This document shows positions 2,358-8,068 of a stretch of 64,000 nt of DNA, one piece after another (position 1 is the first letter of the stretch; each line of letters opens with the position of its first letter). The stretch lies in assembly GCA_965204535.1 (NCBI GenBank), contig OZ241996.1, positions 1,529,654 through 1,593,653 of the forward strand. Direction: 5' to 3'. Source of the DNA: a bacterium. Its GTDB lineage: Bacteria; UBA8248. Made by a program: the position numbers and the translations under genes. The notes under the pieces were generated by a model. It was given only the letters and a program-made list of their open reading frames with translations. It was not told where the DNA came from and did no database searches.

Positions 2358-3224
2358 TCAGGACGCGCCCAGGGCCTTCAGGATGGTTCGACGAACCAGA
2401 ACGGGCGTCACCTGCCGCCTGTAATCGCTGCTGGCGCGGATATCGGTCAGAGGCTCCAGGTCATCGAGCGTGTCCGCGAGTACGGCGTCGATGTTCTCCT
2501 GGTTGAGTTCCTCCCCCCGGAGGCCCTCTTCCGCCGCCGTGAGACGCCTGAATACGGCCTCCACGCCGCCCAGGCCGATCCTCGCTTCTTTTGCAGTCTT
2601 GCCGTCTTCTTCGGTGAGCACCGCCGTGGAGACGGATACGCAGGGCTTGTCCTCTTTCGAGCGCGTGGTGAAGCGCGTGCACGCCGTCCGGAAGCCGTCC
2701 GGCAGCGGGTCGACCTCTATCGAGCACAGCAATTCATCCTCTTCCAGCGCGCATTCGTAATAGCCCGTCCAGAACTCCGCCGCGGGAATCACGCGCTCCG
2801 TTCCGTCCGCCTTCCTGGCGTTCATCCGGGCCTCGAGAGCCAGAAACGCGCCCGGGGGATCGGAGGCCGGCTCCGCAAAGCACAGGTTGCCGCCCACCGT
2901 CCCCTGGTTTCGGATGCGAATGGTCGCCACGTTGTGGAAGATTTCCGCAAGCAGCGGGAATCGCTCCTGCACGAGCGGGGAGGTTTCGATCTTGCGGTGC
3001 ACCGTCTTCGCCCCGATGCGGAGGCCGCCGTTGTCGGTTCCTTCGATGAAATCCAGATCCCCCGCGCCCGCGATGTCAATCAACACCTCGGGTTCGTATA
3101 CCCGCGATTTCATGAGGATCGAGAGGGCCACGCCGCCGGCGAACACTTTCCCGTCCTCGCCGTGCTCCTTCAGGGCGGCGAGCGTTTCCTCCGCGCTGTT
3201 CGCGGGTAGATGCCGAAAAGCCAT
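2358..3224 (-). CDS. Xanthine dehydrogenase family FAD-binding (medium) subunit
   Basis: AGG FAD loop, 'IRNQGTVGGNLC', 'D-IRASSDYRR' C-terminus typical of CoxM/XdhB subunits. Confidence 0.9.
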   Translation of the reverse strand: MAFRHLPANSAEETLAALKEHGEDGKVFAGGVALSILMKSRVYEPEVLIDIAGAGDLDFIEGTDNGGLRIGAKTVHRKIETSPLVQERFPLLAEIFHNVATIRIRNQGTVGGNLCFAEPASDPPGAFLALEARMNARKADGTERVIPAAEFWTGYYECALEEDELLCSIEVDPLPDGFRTACTRFTTRSKEDKPCVSVSTAVLTEEDGKTAKEARIGLGGVEAVFRRLTAAEEGLRGEELNQENIDAVLADTLDDLEPLTDIRASSDYRRQVTPVLVRRTILKALGAS

Positions 3225-3243: not shown

Positions 3244-5529
3244 TTATTCGCCGTTTTTCTCGTTGAGCGCGGTCAGCACCTTCTCCGGCGTTATCGGCAG
3301 CGACGTGATCCGCACGCCGACGGCGTCGTAGATCGCGTTGCCTATCGCCGCCGAGGTTCCCAGCTGCGCCATCTCACCCAGCCCCTTTGCGCCGAAAGGC
3401 CCTGAGGGATTCTCCGTCTCGATGAGCACCGCCTCGAGCTCGGGCAAATCCTGGGTGGTGGGCAGCTTGTAATCGAGCCAGTTCGGATTCACCGGCTGGC
3501 CGTCTTCGACCTCGAAATCCTCCATCATGGCGTAGCCCACGCCCATGACCGCGCCGCCGTCCAACTGACCCTGCGCGCCGGCGGGATTCACGATGGTTCC
3601 GCAGTCGTTCGTGCTGATGACGCGCAACACCTCGAACGCGCCGGTCTCGGTGTCCACTTCCACCTCGGCCACCTTCGCGCCGTATGCGTAGGCCGCGGAC
3701 CAGTTCCCGTAGCCCGTCACGGGGTCGGGCGTCTCGCTCGGCGAGTCGTACGAAGACGCCGTGTAGACGGCCTCGCTGCCCTCTTTCTCGTATATCTTCA
3801 TGTAGGCTTCGCTGTGGGTCACCTGCCGCTCGGGAGAGCTGGTGACGAAAATCCTGCCCTCGCGGGCGTCCAGGTCGTTCGGGTCGCACTCGAGCAATTC
3901 CGCCGCGCCCTTGAAGAGCATGTTCCTCGCCTGGACCGACGCCAGGCGCGTGGCCTCGCCGTCGATGGTCGTCGTGCGGCTTCCGCGCACGCCCCACCCG
4001 TAGGGGTTCACCGCGGTATCGCCGTTGATGATCCGCACGTCTTCCACGCGTACCCCGATCGCCTCGGCGCAAATCTGCGCCAGCGTGGTGTCCGAGCCGT
4101 TGCCCATCTCGATGGTCCCCGAGAGCAACTGCACGGTGCCGTCCTTGTTCATCTTGATGAACGCGCCCGCCGTCTCCGGCCCCATCGCGCGCGCGCCGGT
4201 GAAGTGAACCGCAGCGGCCAGCCCGTAGCCGCGCCTTTTCCCGTTGCTGCCCGGCTGCTTCTGCCTCCAGGGCACGCGCTTGACCGCCTCCTCCACGCAT
4301 TCGGAAACGCCGCAACTGGTGATCTTGGCCCCGATGATGGTGGTGTCGCCCTTTTTCACGAAGTTCTTGATGCGAAACTCCGCCGGGTCCATGCCGATCT
4401 CCTCGGCGTGTTTCTCCATGGCGAGTTCGGAGCCGAACGCATAGCCGGCGTTGCCGATTCCGCGCATCGCGCCGCCGGGCGGCACGTTCGTGCAGACCAC
4501 GTCGGCGTGGTGGCGATAGGCCTTGTAGTTGTAGATGCTCCCGCCCATGTGGGCCGTGATGCCGCCGACCGCCGGGCCGTAATCCGAATAGCCGCCGTTT
4601 TCCACCACCATCTTGGTGTCGCGCGCGAGCAGCATGCCGTCCTTGTCGGTGGCGATGCGCCACACGTGAAACTGCTTCGTCCGGTGGGTGCCCAGGAGGA
4701 ACTCCTCTTCGCGCGTGTAGTAGAATTTCACGGGGCGGTCCAGCATCTTCGCCGCGATGATGGAGAGGAAATCGATGTTGAACTTGCTCGTCGCCTTGCC
4801 GCCGAAACCCCCGCCCACGTAGTTCGTGATCACGCGAATCTGGGCCTCGGGAATCTTCAGGAGTTTCGCGAAATACTGGCTCGAAAGACTCGGGCACTGC
4901 GAGGAGTTGTAAACCGTCACGTCGCCTTTGCGCGACCATTCGGCGATGGAGACGTGCGCCTCCAGGGAGCCGTGCATCTGGCGTGAGGAGGAAGTGGCCA
5001 ACTCGCTCACGTGGTGGGCCTCGTCGAACATGCGGTCCACGTCGCCGAATTCCATATGCTTGGTGAAGGCGATGTTGTTCGGGTACCTGTCGTGGATGAC
5101 GGGGGCGCCCTCTTCCATCGCTTCTCTCGGGTCGAAGACGGCGGGAAGCTCCTCGTAGTCGACGTCGATCAGATCGAGCGCTTCCACCGCGATGTCTTCT
5201 GAAGTCGCCACGACGGCCGCCACCGAGTCGCCCACGTGGCGCACCTTGTCCGAGGCGAGGGGACGCTGGTCGTAGCAAACGGGCACGACGCCCCACTCCA
5301 CGCCCTCGGGGATATCCTTGTACGTCAATATGCGCTTGACGCCGGGGAGCTTCTCGGCCCGGCTGGTGTCGATGTTCTTGATCCGCGCGTGCGGCAGGGG
5401 ACTCCCCAGCAGCCTGCCGTGGAGCATTTTGGGCAACTGCAGGTCCAGGGTGAACATGGCCCGGCCCGTTACCTTTTCCGGCCCATCGACGCGCGGTACG
5501 CTTTTCCCGATGTATGAGAGTTCAGCCAT
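3244..5529 (-). CDS. Xanthine dehydrogenase family molybdopterin-binding (large) subunit
   Basis: 'RVDGPEKVTG', 'VGGGFGGK', 'AMRGIG', 'EMGNGS', 'GSRTT', 'GAKGLGE'. ATG 5529 has a GGAGG RBS. Confidence 0.92.
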   Translation of the reverse strand: MAELSYIGKSVPRVDGPEKVTGRAMFTLDLQLPKMLHGRLLGSPLPHARIKNIDTSRAEKLPGVKRILTYKDIPEGVEWGVVPVCYDQRPLASDKVRHVGDSVAAVVATSEDIAVEALDLIDVDYEELPAVFDPREAMEEGAPVIHDRYPNNIAFTKHMEFGDVDRMFDEAHHVSELATSSSRQMHGSLEAHVSIAEWSRKGDVTVYNSSQCPSLSSQYFAKLLKIPEAQIRVITNYVGGGFGGKATSKFNIDFLSIIAAKMLDRPVKFYYTREEEFLLGTHRTKQFHVWRIATDKDGMLLARDTKMVVENGGYSDYGPAVGGITAHMGGSIYNYKAYRHHADVVCTNVPPGGAMRGIGNAGYAFGSELAMEKHAEEIGMDPAEFRIKNFVKKGDTTIIGAKITSCGVSECVEEAVKRVPWRQKQPGSNGKRRGYGLAAAVHFTGARAMGPETAGAFIKMNKDGTVQLLSGTIEMGNGSDTTLAQICAEAIGVRVEDVRIINGDTAVNPYGWGVRGSRTTTIDGEATRLASVQARNMLFKGAAELLECDPNDLDAREGRIFVTSSPERQVTHSEAYMKIYEKEGSEAVYTASSYDSPSETPDPVTGYGNWSAAYAYGAKVAEVEVDTETGAFEVLRVISTNDCGTIVNPAGAQGQLDGGAVMGVGYAMMEDFEVEDGQPVNPNWLDYKLPTTQDLPELEAVLIETENPSGPFGAKGLGEMAQLGTSAAIGNAIYDAVGVRITSLPITPEKVLTALNEKNGE

Positions 5530-5872
5530 CACAACCTCCACTCGTTAGCGGCGCCGAACCGCATGCCGCAGGGCGTTTTTATGTTCTTATCCTTTGTTTG
5601 ATTTTCGAATGAATAGACCATCCCCCCATCGCCATCCCCTCGGGACTCGGCAGAACGCGACGGTATTTCGCTTGCTTTCGATTCTCGCATTATAACAACA
5701 CGAAGGAGAAAACAAAACATCAAAAATCGACGCGGAGAGGCTCCTTGCGCCATTCCGGGGAACCCCTCCCTCCCGCTTTCTCCCCTTCGGTTTGTGGTGT
5801 ATCATCCGCCGTACTGAAACCGGAAAATAAACTTTCGAAACATCCCGCAAACACCAGAACTGGAGTATCGTA

Positions 5873-6619
5873 ATGCCCATTCGTTTTGATTTTCAGGGCC
5901 GAAAGGTCATTCTCACGGGCGCGGCGGGCGCGATGGGAAGCCGCATCCTGCAGGGATACATCGAGGCCGGCGCCAAAGTTTTCGCCACCGACAGGGAAGG
6001 CCCGGCGTTCGACGCCATCGAAGGCCCGTCCGATCAGCTCTTCAAGCTCCCCTGCGACCTGGCCGACGTGGACGCCATCCGCACCACCATGCGCGCGGCG
6101 CTCGAATGGCTGGGCGGCTGCGACGTGCTGGCGAACGTGGCCGGCTACATGCCGATTCGCCCGCCGATGGAACTCGAAGAAGACGACTGGAACGTCGTGC
6201 TGAACGTGAACCTGCTGGCGCCCTATTTCTGCATCCAGGAGACCATCGAGGCGCTCAAGGCCTCGGGAACGGGGCGCATCGTCAGCTTCGCGTCCATCGC
6301 GGGGAAAATGGGGGGTATCGGCCCCAATCTCACCTACTCCGCCGCCAAGGCGGGCCTGCTCGCCATGACGTTCAACCTCGCGCGCGAATTGGCGAAAACG
6401 GGCGTGACGATCAACACCATACAGCCGGGTCCGGCCGATACGGGCCTTCACTTCCAGTCCCCGCCCGAGATGCTCGTGAACGCCGAGAAGGCCCATCCCA
6501 TGGGCAGACTCACGACGCCCGAAGACGTGTGGCAGACCGTCCTGTTCCTATCGAGCGAGGAGGCCGCCCACATCAACGGCGAGGCGGTGGACGTGAACGG
6601 CGGCTTCTGGACGGACTAG
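5873..6619 (+). CDS. SDR family NAD(P)-dependent oxidoreductase
   Basis: TGAAGAMG, NVAG, YSAAK, VNGG motifs. Confidence 0.9.
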   Translation: MPIRFDFQGRKVILTGAAGAMGSRILQGYIEAGAKVFATDREGPAFDAIEGPSDQLFKLPCDLADVDAIRTTMRAALEWLGGCDVLANVAGYMPIRPPMELEEDDWNVVLNVNLLAPYFCIQETIEALKASGTGRIVSFASIAGKMGGIGPNLTYSAAKAGLLAMTFNLARELAKTGVTINTIQPGPADTGLHFQSPPEMLVNAEKAHPMGRLTTPEDVWQTVLFLSSEEAAHINGEAVDVNGGFWTD

Positions 6620-6631
6620 GAGGAGAACACC

Positions 6632-7468
6632 ATGCCGAACGACAACCCGAAAGGATATGCGAACCCCGACCTGCTCTGGTCGGCAGTACTTCTCAAAGAG
6701 CGCATGGACGACCCGAATTTGAGAATCATCGACACGCGCCCCGGCGAGCGCTATACGATGGGCCACATCCCCGGCGCGCGGCATTTCGACGTCTACGGCG
6801 TGAACAGCGACGACTCGGACGAGGCCCCCTTGAGGAATTTCTTCTCCATGTGGGCGTTCCTGCTCGGGAACCGCGGGGTGTCGTTCGAGAACACCATCGT
6901 CTTCTACGACGACTTCGTCGGCAACACGAGCGTGCGCGGCTTCTGGATGCTGGAGCTTTTCGGCCACAAGGACGTGCACGTGCTCGACGGCGGCTACGGC
7001 GCCTGGGAGCGGGCGGGCTACGAGACGACGCGCGACGCCGAGGTGCCAAAGGCCGCTGCATTCGAGATGGCGTTCGAGCCGGATCGCCTCGCCACGCGCG
7101 AGGACGTGCTGGCGGCCATCGAGGACGACAACCACATGCTGCTCGACACCCGCTCGGTTGAGGAGTGGGAGGGGCGCAGCATGCGCGCGAAGCGCAGCGG
7201 CATCATCCCCGGCGCGGTCTGGCAGGAATGGCTCCAGCACCTGACGCCTGAGGGCGAGATGAAGCCGGCGGATGAGCTTCGCGCGCAGTTCGAGGCCATC
7301 GGGGTCACGCCCGACAAAGAAGTGACCACCTACTGACAGACGGGCTACCGTGCGGCGCACGGTTACTTCGCCCTGCGGCTTCTCGATTACCCCAAGGTGA
7401 GGAACTACATGAGCTCCTGGAAGGAATGGGGCAACCGAGACGACACGCCCATCGTCCAGGCGCAATAG
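6632..7468 (+). CDS. Two-domain sulfurtransferase (rhodanese/SseA-like), probable selenoprotein with Sec at TGA 7334-7336
   Basis: GHIPGA, VLDGG, LLDTR and GIIPGA motifs. The in-frame TGA sits at the catalytic Cys (TTY-U-QTGYRAAH). The frame continues through the conserved 'VRNYMSSWKEWG' to TAG 7466-7468. Confidence 0.88.
7337..7375 (+). promoter_or_regulatory. Putative bacterial SECIS element
   Basis: ACCGTGC-GGC-GCACGGT hairpin (7347-7363) with a lower GGGC/GCCC stem. The G-first apical loop starts 18 nt after UGA. Confidence 0.7.
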
Positions 7469-7594
7469 GGCGTACATAAGCGGAAAGACGCGGCGTGAAG
7501 GGCTCCACGGCCGAACTCGTCTCCGTCACGCCGTCGGGCCTGAGGACGCTCTCGCAGTATTACTGGATTGAGAAGATTGACTTGAAGAGGTAAC

Positions 7595-7614
7595 GGGAGA
7601 GAAGGCGCTCTCCC
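7595..7614. terminator. Short hairpin between convergent genes
   Basis: GGGAGAG-aaggcg-CTCTCCC; no clear U-tract. Confidence 0.3.
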
Positions 7615-7642
7615 CGCGCATGTCAAACCCGAATTCGCCCCC

Positions 7643-8068
7643 TCACATCTCCCTCGGGTGCAGCTCTTCGTACTTGCCGTGATCCGTATCGATATCCGCC
7701 ATGTGGCGGAAGATTTCCTCGTACCCCGGTGGTGAGAACATCCACAGGAGTTTGAGGGGAACGTCGCCGGTGTTCCTCAGGCCGTGCTCCACGCCCACGG
7801 GCAGAAAGGCGGTCATGCCCGCCTTGACCTGATAGACCTCGCCGTCCACCTCCACTTCGGCTTCGCCCTCGTGGAAGAAGAGGATTTCTTCTTCTTTCTC
7901 ATGCAGATGTACGGGGATGCCGCCGCCGACGGGGATGTCCTGATTCCCCATGCTGAGCATTCGGGAGTTCGTGTTCCGGGGGTCGATGAGGATGCGCCAG
8001 CCCCGGGGCAATTCTATATCGACCATCTCGATCTTTTCGCCGTCGTCCCAATCGAACACGTATGTCAT
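7643..8068 (-). CDS. Cupin domain protein
   Basis: 'PVHLHEKEEEILFFHEG' and 'FLPVGVEHGLRNTG' match cupin motifs 1 and 2. Confidence 0.88.
   Translation of the reverse strand: MTYVFDWDDGEKIEMVDIELPRGWRILIDPRNTNSRMLSMGNQDIPVGGGIPVHLHEKEEEILFFHEGEAEVEVDGEVYQVKAGMTAFLPVGVEHGLRNTGDVPLKLLWMFSPPGYEEIFRHMADIDTDHGKYEELHPREM

What the first reader, a model, noticed from the sequence alone, without database searches (positions are those of the whole stretch)
6632..7468. Hidden selenoprotein 1: tandem-domain sulfurtransferase with Sec as the catalytic residue
Seen: the ORF track stops at TGA 7334-7336, exactly where SseA/TST enzymes have the active-site Cys (Y-C-x-x-G-x-R-A). The next 43 codons give the conserved C-terminus (QTGYRAAHGYFALRLLDY..VRNY.SSW.EWG). 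A 7-bp hairpin with a G-first loop starts 18 nt downstream, where bacterial SECIS elements sit. Known: rhodanese-like selenoproteins have been reported from environmental genomes, but pipelines usually call them pseudogenes. Inference: a Se-dependent S/Se-transferase co-transcribed with an SDR and divergent from the Mo-hydroxylase; it could act in cofactor sulfuration or organosulfur catabolism.
Basis: partly seen in the sequence, partly recalled or inferred. Interest (0 to 1): 0.78.

Follow-up and report, generated by a model that had tools for sequence, protein, structure and literature searches.

The report
Selenocysteine rhodanese with newly evolved SECIS
This is a two-domain sulfur-transfer (rhodanese) gene whose catalytic cysteine codon has become a UGA that is very likely read as selenocysteine; such selenoproteins have been predicted since 2005, so it is a new member of a known kind that public databases cut short.

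Summary
Confirmed; new member of a known kind. Window 6632-7468(+) encodes a 278-residue tandem rhodanese with TGA at codon 235, the catalytic Cys column. TGA is kept in 32 genomes of four genera (33 copies). The 43-codon tail evolves as protein. The genome has selA, selB, a TGA-containing selD and tRNA-Sec. A 7-bp, G-loop hairpin meets the published bacterial SECIS rules and matches the selD hairpin's geometry.

The family (COG2897 selenoprotein) was predicted in 2005, and this scan reported this gene twice before in other genomes. Databases list it as a 234-residue protein.

Added here: the Sec clade nests among Cys orthologues, two of them behind the same SDR gene, and its hairpin depends on two amino-acid changes (S241A, A244G) plus two rare codons. 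A paralogue gained TGA separately in this genus, and a third lineage separately again.

Function is inferred: sulfane-sulfur transfer, likely with the upstream SDR. Cofactor sulfuration is a weaker rival. Read-through was not measured.

The parts
6632..7468 (+). Gene for a 278-residue tandem-domain rhodanese (sulfurtransferase), predicted selenoprotein; U235 is its only Cys or Sec residue
   Evidence: two PF00581 stretches; pLDDT 96; TM 0.84-0.87 to 1e0c and 1uar
7334..7336 (+). In-frame TGA, codon 235, predicted selenocysteine at the catalytic Cys position (loop U-Q-T-G-Y-R)
7347..7363 (+). SECIS-like hairpin: 7-bp stem, 3-nt loop GGC starting 18 nt after the UGA; covers codons 239-244
   Evidence: criteria from PMC13188914 section 5
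7337..7468 (+). 43-codon read-through tail carrying the rest of the active-site loop, a helix and the SW.EWG motif; evolves as protein
   Evidence: (149 synonymous vs 36 non-synonymous codon differences; 93.6% identity vs 90.2% upstream)
6619..6625 (+). Purine-rich Shine-Dalgarno-like site overlapping the SDR stop codon, ending 6 nt before the ATG
   Evidence: sequence; function inferred
5873..6619 (+). Short-chain dehydrogenase (SDR) 12 nt upstream, likely the same operon; substrate unknown
3244..5541 (-). Divergent molybdenum-hydroxylase large subunit (xanthine dehydrogenase / 4-hydroxybenzoyl-CoA reductase family, below all family cut-offs); neighbour, link to the rhodanese not shown
2358..3224 (-). 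FAD subunit of that molybdenum hydroxylase; no 2Fe-2S subunit gene found in the window

Best explanation
The gene encodes a two-domain rhodanese whose catalytic codon is a UGA that is very likely decoded as selenocysteine through the hairpin behind it, and the enzyme likely moves sulfane sulfur from a donor to a thiol acceptor in a catabolic operon with the upstream SDR. Shown: the ORF, the TGA at the catalytic column, its conservation, the protein-like evolution of the tail, the hairpin, the machinery genes and the SDR linkage. Inferred from known bacterial Sec decoding (about 0.97): SelB with Sec-tRNA binds the G-loop hairpin and inserts Sec at codon 235. Without this, the 234-residue product has no Cys or Sec and lacks most of the active-site loop. 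Inferred from rhodanese chemistry (about 0.85): the selenolate attacks a sulfane-sulfur donor (thiosulfate, a persulfide or polysulfide, or a thiol-bearing catabolite), forms an enzyme-Se-SH intermediate and passes the sulfur on, as Azotobacter RhdA does with Cys230. Inferred from gene order only (about 0.55): it handles sulfur released in the pathway that the SDR serves. History, inferred from trees: a Cys ancestor already sat behind this SDR; one lineage gained UGA and a SECIS made inside the active-site coding sequence by S241A and A244G and the rare codons CGT and GGT.
For: selA and selB over cut-off, selD with its own TGA, one tRNA with anticodon TCA. The selD hairpin also has a 7-bp stem and a 3-nt G-first loop at +18. 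TGA in 22 of 23 genomes of the genus (the 23rd contig ends before the codon) and in 10 genomes of three other genera. All 94 full-length database homologues among the best 120 have Cys at this column; 25 records end exactly at Tyr234. Hairpin codons CGT and GGT occur in 16 of 18 copies each, against 10 of 307 CGN and 15 of 380 GGN codons elsewhere in these genes. The three Cys orthologues (67-70% identity) read C-Q-T-G-Y-R-S-A-H-A and lack the hairpin. The Sec copies form one clade among Cys rows (SH-aLRT 96-100, columns 230-246 blanked). Fold and loop resemble RhdA (C-Q-T-H-H-R-S), which transfers sulfur from thiosulfate (passages of PMC9369223). SDR upstream in 26 of 26 loci and in 2 of 3 Cys orthologues.
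Against: No peptide, 75Se or reporter evidence of read-through. The hairpin's energy is not beyond shuffles. No compensatory base changes were seen. Low synonymous variation there (p 0.012 by column permutation, related genomes) is matched by a stretch at codons 12-40. A241 and G244 are not Sec-specific: 13 of 67 distant Cys loci have A241 and 2 have both residues, without the hairpin. selB was not found in 3 of the 32 TGA genomes (79%, 91%, 67% complete). No substrate evidence. Neighbours of distant Cys homologues are mixed (20 of 53 neighbour ORFs scanned), so the SDR link may be inherited gene order.
Confidence: 0.55

Rival explanations
1. Same selenoprotein, but its job is to deliver sulfur or selenium for the terminal ligand of the molybdenum cofactor of the divergent Mo-hydroxylase.
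For: The large subunit is the divergent neighbour in 23 of 26 loci, in G031, G032, G050, G051 and in the Cys orthologue of G043. The genome has 10 large-subunit loci plus XdhC, YqeB and YqeC, the proposed accessory proteins of selenium-dependent Mo-hydroxylases (passages of PMC2276186).
Against: The link is lost in L059 and L064 and in G033 and G034 while the SDR stays. XdhC, YqeB and YqeC cluster about 535 kb away (C1:997-1002 kb). None of the 74 metagenome loci outside this clade showed a hit to the large subunit, though many are short. Most of the 23 positive loci are one genus, so they are not independent.
Confidence: 0.17
2. Same selenoprotein, but mainly a general redox-protection enzyme (thiyl-radical, persulfide or peroxide handling), with the operon position incidental.
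For: RhdA, the nearest solved fold, scavenges glutathione thiyl radicals through Cys230 (abstract and passages of PMC3458005). Two distant homologues sit behind peroxiredoxin-family genes (L094, L128). TGA arose separately in three rhodanese lineages, which points to a general advantage of Sec.
Against: No glutathione synthetase over the TIGR01380 cut-off was found in the genome (other synthetases not searched). The SDR link is kept across five or more genera.
Confidence: 0.22
3. UGA is a true stop, a sequencing error, or read as another residue; the gene is truncated or dead.
For: Public records list 234-residue products. Read-through was not measured.
Against: TGA, never TAA or TAG, at the catalytic column in 33 copies down to 74% identity. 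The tail is intact (42-52 codons in 19 of 19 TGA loci) and under purifying selection. TGA ends 1286 coding-like ORFs here and the only TCA-anticodon tRNA is tRNA-Sec, so there is no general recoding.
Confidence: 0.03

Closest known systems
[quoted passage not shown]
   Same: SseA-type tandem rhodanese with Sec for the catalytic Cys, a U-x-x-G loop and a downstream SECIS.
   Different: Trees indicate a separate origin of this clade within one family of Nitrospinota-labelled genomes. The published representatives (MQG53192.1, MCY3690685.1) could not be fetched, so their relation to this clade is untested. Equating the 2022 COG2897 row with the 2026 'form 4' row is my inference from their shared name and table position.
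Azotobacter vinelandii RhdA (PDB 1e0c)
   Same: Top fold match (TM 0.84, E 1e-26, 30% identity). Loop C-Q-T-x-x-R shared, with a single catalytic chalcogen residue.
   Different: Sec for Cys; G-Y for H-H in the loop; Ala where RhdA has Ser236, one of the residues said to lower the Cys230 pKa.
Thermus thermophilus rhodanese (1uar) and actinobacterial SseA/CysA sulfurtransferases
   Same: Best sequence match (E 1.4e-43); TM 0.87.
   Different: Loop C-R-I-A-E-R in 1uar; about one third identity. The genome's second TGA paralogue (loop U-R-L-S-H-R) looks closer to this type by loop; not tested by alignment.
Escherichia coli SseA, 3-mercaptopyruvate sulfurtransferase (1urh; NCBIfam PRK11493)
   Same: Same fold; best NCBIfam hit (E 7e-42).
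   Different: 143.5 bits against a cut-off of 250; loop C-G-S-G-V-T is not matched.

Membership tests
Bacterial selenoprotein | In-frame UGA aligned with Cys of homologues | tested here: met
   (94 of 94 full-length homologues have Cys)
Bacterial selenoprotein | selA, selB, selC, selD in the genome | tested here: met
Bacterial selenoprotein | bSECIS model: loop 3-9 nt, stem 4-16 bp, G in the first two loop positions, spacing 16-37 nt, energy at or below -7.5 kcal/mol | tested here: met
   3 nt, 7 bp, GG, 17 nt, -9.7 against the criteria in PMC13188914 section 5; bSECISearch itself was not run
Bacterial selenoprotein | Coding conservation after the UGA | tested here: met
Bacterial selenoprotein | Selenium in the expressed protein | not testable with these tools
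   needs 75Se labelling or mass spectrometry
Tandem-domain rhodanese (TST/MST/SseA superfamily) | Two PF00581 domains, catalytic residue in the second | tested here: met
Tandem-domain rhodanese (TST/MST/SseA superfamily) | Sulfur-transfer activity | not testable with these tools
   needs an assay
COG2897 selenoprotein / rhodanese form 4 | U-x-x-G motif in an SseA-type protein | tested here: met
   U-Q-T-G; motif from the table of PMC13188914
COG2897 selenoprotein / rhodanese form 4 | Score against the COG2897 profile, or alignment to the published representatives | not testable with these tools
   no COG library held; accessions not retrievable; the BSepDB supplement held lists genomes only and was cut
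3-mercaptopyruvate sulfurtransferase (E. coli SseA type) | C-G-S-G-V-T loop and PRK11493 cut-off | tested here: not met
Mitochondrial-type thiosulfate sulfurtransferase | C-R-K-G-V-T loop | tested here: not met
   motif from PMC9369223; here U-Q-T-G-Y-R
Other NCBIfam rhodanese families (ExtH NF040901; LYCAU selenoprotein NF041203) | Family cut-off | tested here: not met
   46.2 vs 200 bits and 34.8 vs 115 bits

The most novel reading that the evidence does not exclude
Tandem rhodaneses have switched Cys to Sec at least three times independently, and in the two switches within this bacterial family the SECIS was written into the active-site coding sequence by changing residues (S241A and A244G here, T to S in the paralogue). 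That gives matched Sec and Cys orthologues in one gene order. In the boldest reading the Sec enzyme works through a Se-SH or Se-SeH intermediate that supplies the selenium or sulfur ligand to the neighbouring Mo-hydroxylase, linking the selenocysteine and selenium-cofactor traits.
Probability: 0.15. Interest if true: 0.65.

Novelty: new member of a known kind. Interest (0 to 1): 0.3.

Why it matters
It corrects a misannotation: public records of this clade end one codon before the catalytic residue (25 of the best 120 homologue clusters). My paper searches (open-access library only, listings and passages) showed predictions of Sec-rhodaneses but no biochemical study, so what Sec adds to persulfide chemistry looks open. 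The matched Sec and Cys orthologues (67-70% identical, two behind the same SDR) offer a ready test of that, and of how a SECIS arises inside an active-site sequence. A selenoprotein specialist would not be surprised: the family is known, Cys-to-Sec is the usual direction (PMC1794560), and genomes with the same Nitrospinota label are among the most selenoprotein-rich in BSepDB.

Tried and rejected
Folding energy as proof of the SECIS: not significant. Covariation: none seen in the fetched copies, so no covariance model was built. S241A as an adaptation to Sec chemistry: rejected as the main cause, because the second TGA lineage keeps Ser (7 of 7) and 13 of 67 distant Cys loci have Ala. Single origin of the two tested TGA groups: rejected by AU test (p 4.9e-5; 16 TGA rows against 34 Cys rows, quick tree; the paralogue was not in that tree). 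General TGA recoding: rejected. Promoter scan of 5400-7800: none found; terminator-like hits at chance level. RNA: contigs from two metatranscriptome runs of one study cover the SDR-rhodanese junction and the TGA region at about 90-95% likeness (4 of 23 listed runs laid). Contigs cannot show a single transcript, DNA may be present, and the difference table was cut (147 rows not shown), so the letters at 7334-7336 in those runs stay unverified. The HMMER search of cluster representatives could not be run, so distant TGA lineages were sampled only. The first tree finished only as a quick tree and had long branches. Neighbours of distant homologues gave no consistent partner. No complex prediction was made: adjacency alone did not justify it. 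Supplements of the reviews were not read; BSepDB's own entries could not be seen and may already hold this gene.

Full report
Observation. The window has an ORF from ATG 6632 to TAG 7466-7468 with one in-frame TGA at 7334-7336. Read through, it gives 278 residues with two rhodanese domains. The TGA sits at the catalytic Cys of solved sulfurtransferases 1uar, 1e0c and 1urh. An AlphaFold model made with Cys at that place has pLDDT 96 and matches 1e0c and 1uar with TM 0.84 and 0.87. U235 is the only Cys or Sec in the protein, so a 234-residue product would have no catalytic residue. A 7-bp hairpin (7347-7363) has a GGC loop starting 18 nt after the UGA; the stem starts at +11.

Machinery. The genome carries selA and selB over their family cut-offs, selD with its own in-frame TGA, and one tRNA with anticodon TCA. 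Across the 51 genomes of the phylum, selA passed the cut-off in 49 and selB in 48. Of the 32 genomes with the TGA gene, selB was not found in three (79%, 91% and 67% complete). TGA is an ordinary stop elsewhere: it ends 1286 coding-like ORFs of 150 codons or more.

Conservation. The gene has TGA in 22 of 23 genomes of the genus (the other contig ends before the codon) and in 10 genomes of three other genera, down to 74% identity; with a second copy in one genome that is 33 copies. The tail after TGA is open for 42-52 codons in 19 of 19 TGA loci. Against the window's gene, 17 relatives differ in the tail at 149 synonymous and 36 non-synonymous codons, compared with 623 and 388 upstream. Among the best 120 of 717 database homologues, 25 end exactly at Tyr234, one is a shorter fragment, and all 94 full-length ones have Cys at the column. 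Named records such as MCY3824267.1, MYA98022.1 and MDE0330720.1 are 234-residue proteins. Sequencing error and pseudogene are thus very unlikely.

The SECIS. The hairpin meets the four criteria of the bacterial model as given in section 5 of PMC13188914: loop 3 nt, stem 7 bp, G first, spacing 17 nt, -9.7 kcal/mol. The selD hairpin of the same genome has the same stem length, loop size and position. A comparable hairpin follows 19 of 1286 TGA-ended ORFs. Against this, its energy is not beyond shuffles, no compensatory changes were seen, and the low synonymous variation (mean 0.084 vs 0.229; p 0.012, related genomes) is equalled at codons 12-40. The stem needs the rare codons CGT and GGT, each used in 16 of 18 copies against 3-4% elsewhere in these genes. 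It is unbroken in 28 of 33 copies, 6 bp in 3, and has one mismatch in 2.

Origin. Three genomes of the same family hold Cys orthologues at 67-70% identity (G042, G043, G044); all have selA and selB. They read C-Q-T-G-Y-R-S-A-H-A and have no hairpin. Relative to G043, four of the seven base pairs are new: two come from S241A and A244G and two from third-position changes (read from the codons). In a 50-row tree with columns 230-246 blanked, nine Sec rows chosen from this clade form one branch among Cys rows; all 32 did so in the 48-row tree. Both are quick trees rooted at the midpoint, so the gain is inferred from nesting. Among the 94 closest Cys proteins, 93 have Ser241 and 92 have Ala244. In more distant Cys loci Ala241 is common (13 of 67) and 2 have both changes without the hairpin. 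The residues are therefore tolerated changes that the RNA uses, not a requirement of Sec. A paralogue gained TGA only in this genus, with its own hairpin and a T-to-S change (21 TGA copies, 4 Cys copies fetched). Seven of 80 metagenome loci form a third TGA lineage, and an AU test rejects joining it with this clade (p 4.9e-5); its recoding is unverified.

Neighbourhood. An SDR ends 12 nt upstream. It is upstream in 26 of 26 genome loci, in all 12 further TGA loci from the phylum search and in two of three Cys orthologues. The divergent Mo-hydroxylase is present in 23 of 26 loci, mostly one genus; it is also next to the Cys orthologue of G043 but absent in L059, L064, G033 and G034. The genome has 10 large-subunit loci and 36 SDR-like loci, and XdhC, YqeB and YqeC cluster far away. 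Distant homologues have mixed neighbours. RNA-library contigs from one study cover the junction and the tail but cannot prove one transcript. Named relatives are titled Nitrospinota or unnamed 'bacterium'; many runs holding relatives are labelled sponge metagenome, and three such runs were laid.

Mechanism. Recoding by SelB at the hairpin is inferred from the established pathway (about 0.97). Ping-pong transfer of sulfane sulfur through an enzyme-Se-SH intermediate is inferred from rhodanese chemistry (about 0.85). The loop U-Q-T-G-Y-R matches neither the mercaptopyruvate type (C-G-S-G-V-T; PRK11493 below cut-off) nor C-R-K-G-V-T. It is closest to RhdA (C-Q-T-H-H-R-S), which prefers thiosulfate as donor and also scavenges thiyl radicals (passages of PMC9369223 and PMC3458005). 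I commit to sulfur transfer in the SDR's catabolic pathway (0.55). Rivals: general redox protection (0.22), S or Se delivery to the Mo-hydroxylase (0.17), dead gene (0.03).

What is known. Three COG2897 rhodanese selenoprotein genes were predicted from the Sargasso Sea in 2005 (PMC1088965, passages) and three more in Olavius symbionts (PMC1976440, passages). The family is in the tables of the 2022 and 2026 reviews (PMC9312934, PMC13188914; passages, plus one section). Cys-to-Sec is the usual direction of change (PMC1794560, passages). BSepDB lists three UBA8248 genomes named Nitrospinota or Nitrospinaceae among its ten richest, with 48-54 selenoprotein genes (PMC13326102, passages); that this genome belongs to UBA8248 is my inference from the labels of its relatives. 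Its one supplement held lists genomes and was cut. Searches listed no biochemical study of a Sec rhodanese, and one search listed no paper on SECIS-driven residue changes in this family; I saw only listings for most hits and the library lacks most subscription papers. This scan reported the same gene in two other genomes; one of those notes led me to look for the host lineage's selenoprotein richness.

Verdict. Real and well supported; a new member of a known, predicted family. The extra value is the clear record of repeated Cys-to-Sec gains with matched orthologues. Interest 0.3.

Noticed in passing
G000:C1:488935-489780 (L086, L168): Second tandem rhodanese with TGA at the catalytic column (U-R-L-S-H-R-A-S). 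All 21 fetched copies from genus g1 have TGA and a 9-bp hairpin with loop GTC at +20; the 4 fetched copies from other genera have Cys, read R-A-T and have no hairpin over 5 bp. An independent, apparently younger Cys-to-Sec gain.
   Followed up: yes
L126, L128, L134-L137, L142 (metagenome contigs): A separate lineage (about 51% identity) with TGA at the same column, loop U-Q-G-G-Y-R-S; 7 of 80 loci. No G-loop hairpin at +16 to +25 by my scan, so it may use another SECIS type; machinery not checked.
   Followed up: partly
G000:C2:1879494-1880363 (L087): Cys-containing paralogue (43-47% identity, loop C-Q-G-G-Y-R-S) next to a DNA gyrase A-like ORF (named from its sequence, not scanned); could act as a selenium-independent counterpart.
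   Followed up: partly
G000:C1:997429-1002247: XdhC, YqeC and YqeB genes cluster here, and a second YqeC lies at C2:2013705; with 10 Mo-hydroxylase large-subunit loci but 4 FAD-subunit and 4 2Fe-2S-subunit loci, the genome likely has the selenium-cofactor trait and shares small subunits.
   Followed up: partly
G000:C2, about 2322306-2322855 (+): ORF reading ...PLVIP-TGA-HRV... with a G-loop hairpin at +21; resembles methylated-DNA-protein-cysteine methyltransferase (motif recalled), a listed selenoprotein family.
   Followed up: no
P0049, P0050, P0058, P0085, P0091: Cys homologues of 434-436 residues with an extra N-terminal domain of about 160 residues that has no Pfam hit in the 2 of 5 scanned; its H-D-H and I-H-S motifs recall a thiol-dioxygenase-type cupin (recalled, untested). 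A possible clue to the family's function.
   Followed up: partly
L140:1035-2231, L141:544-1686: Distant Cys homologues lie directly behind class-V aminotransferase (cysteine desulfurase-like) genes.
   Followed up: no
window 6806-6808 (codon 59): Residue 59 is Ser in the 14 matched copies of this genus but Cys in the matched Sec copies of other genera and in the three Cys orthologues, so the genus lost the only other cysteine of this motif (22 of 36 loci matched the pattern).
   Followed up: partly
records 5, 6 and 11 (window 7329-7385): RNA-library contigs of other organisms touch the active-site region; one loose end reads as Tyr-TGA-Gln-Gly-Gly, hinting at another TGA rhodanese in the same runs.
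   Followed up: no
window 790-21348: The gene sits in a catabolic-looking island: DcaP-type porin, cupin, luciferase-like monooxygenase, second SDR, TRAP/TAXI transporter, glyoxalase-fold protein, amidase, FdrA, UbiX and a fumarate-reductase-like flavoprotein.
   Followed up: partly
L061 (G004 second copy): One genome holds two copies; one has frameshifts in this gene and in the luciferase-like gene; assembly error or decay, not resolved.
   Followed up: no
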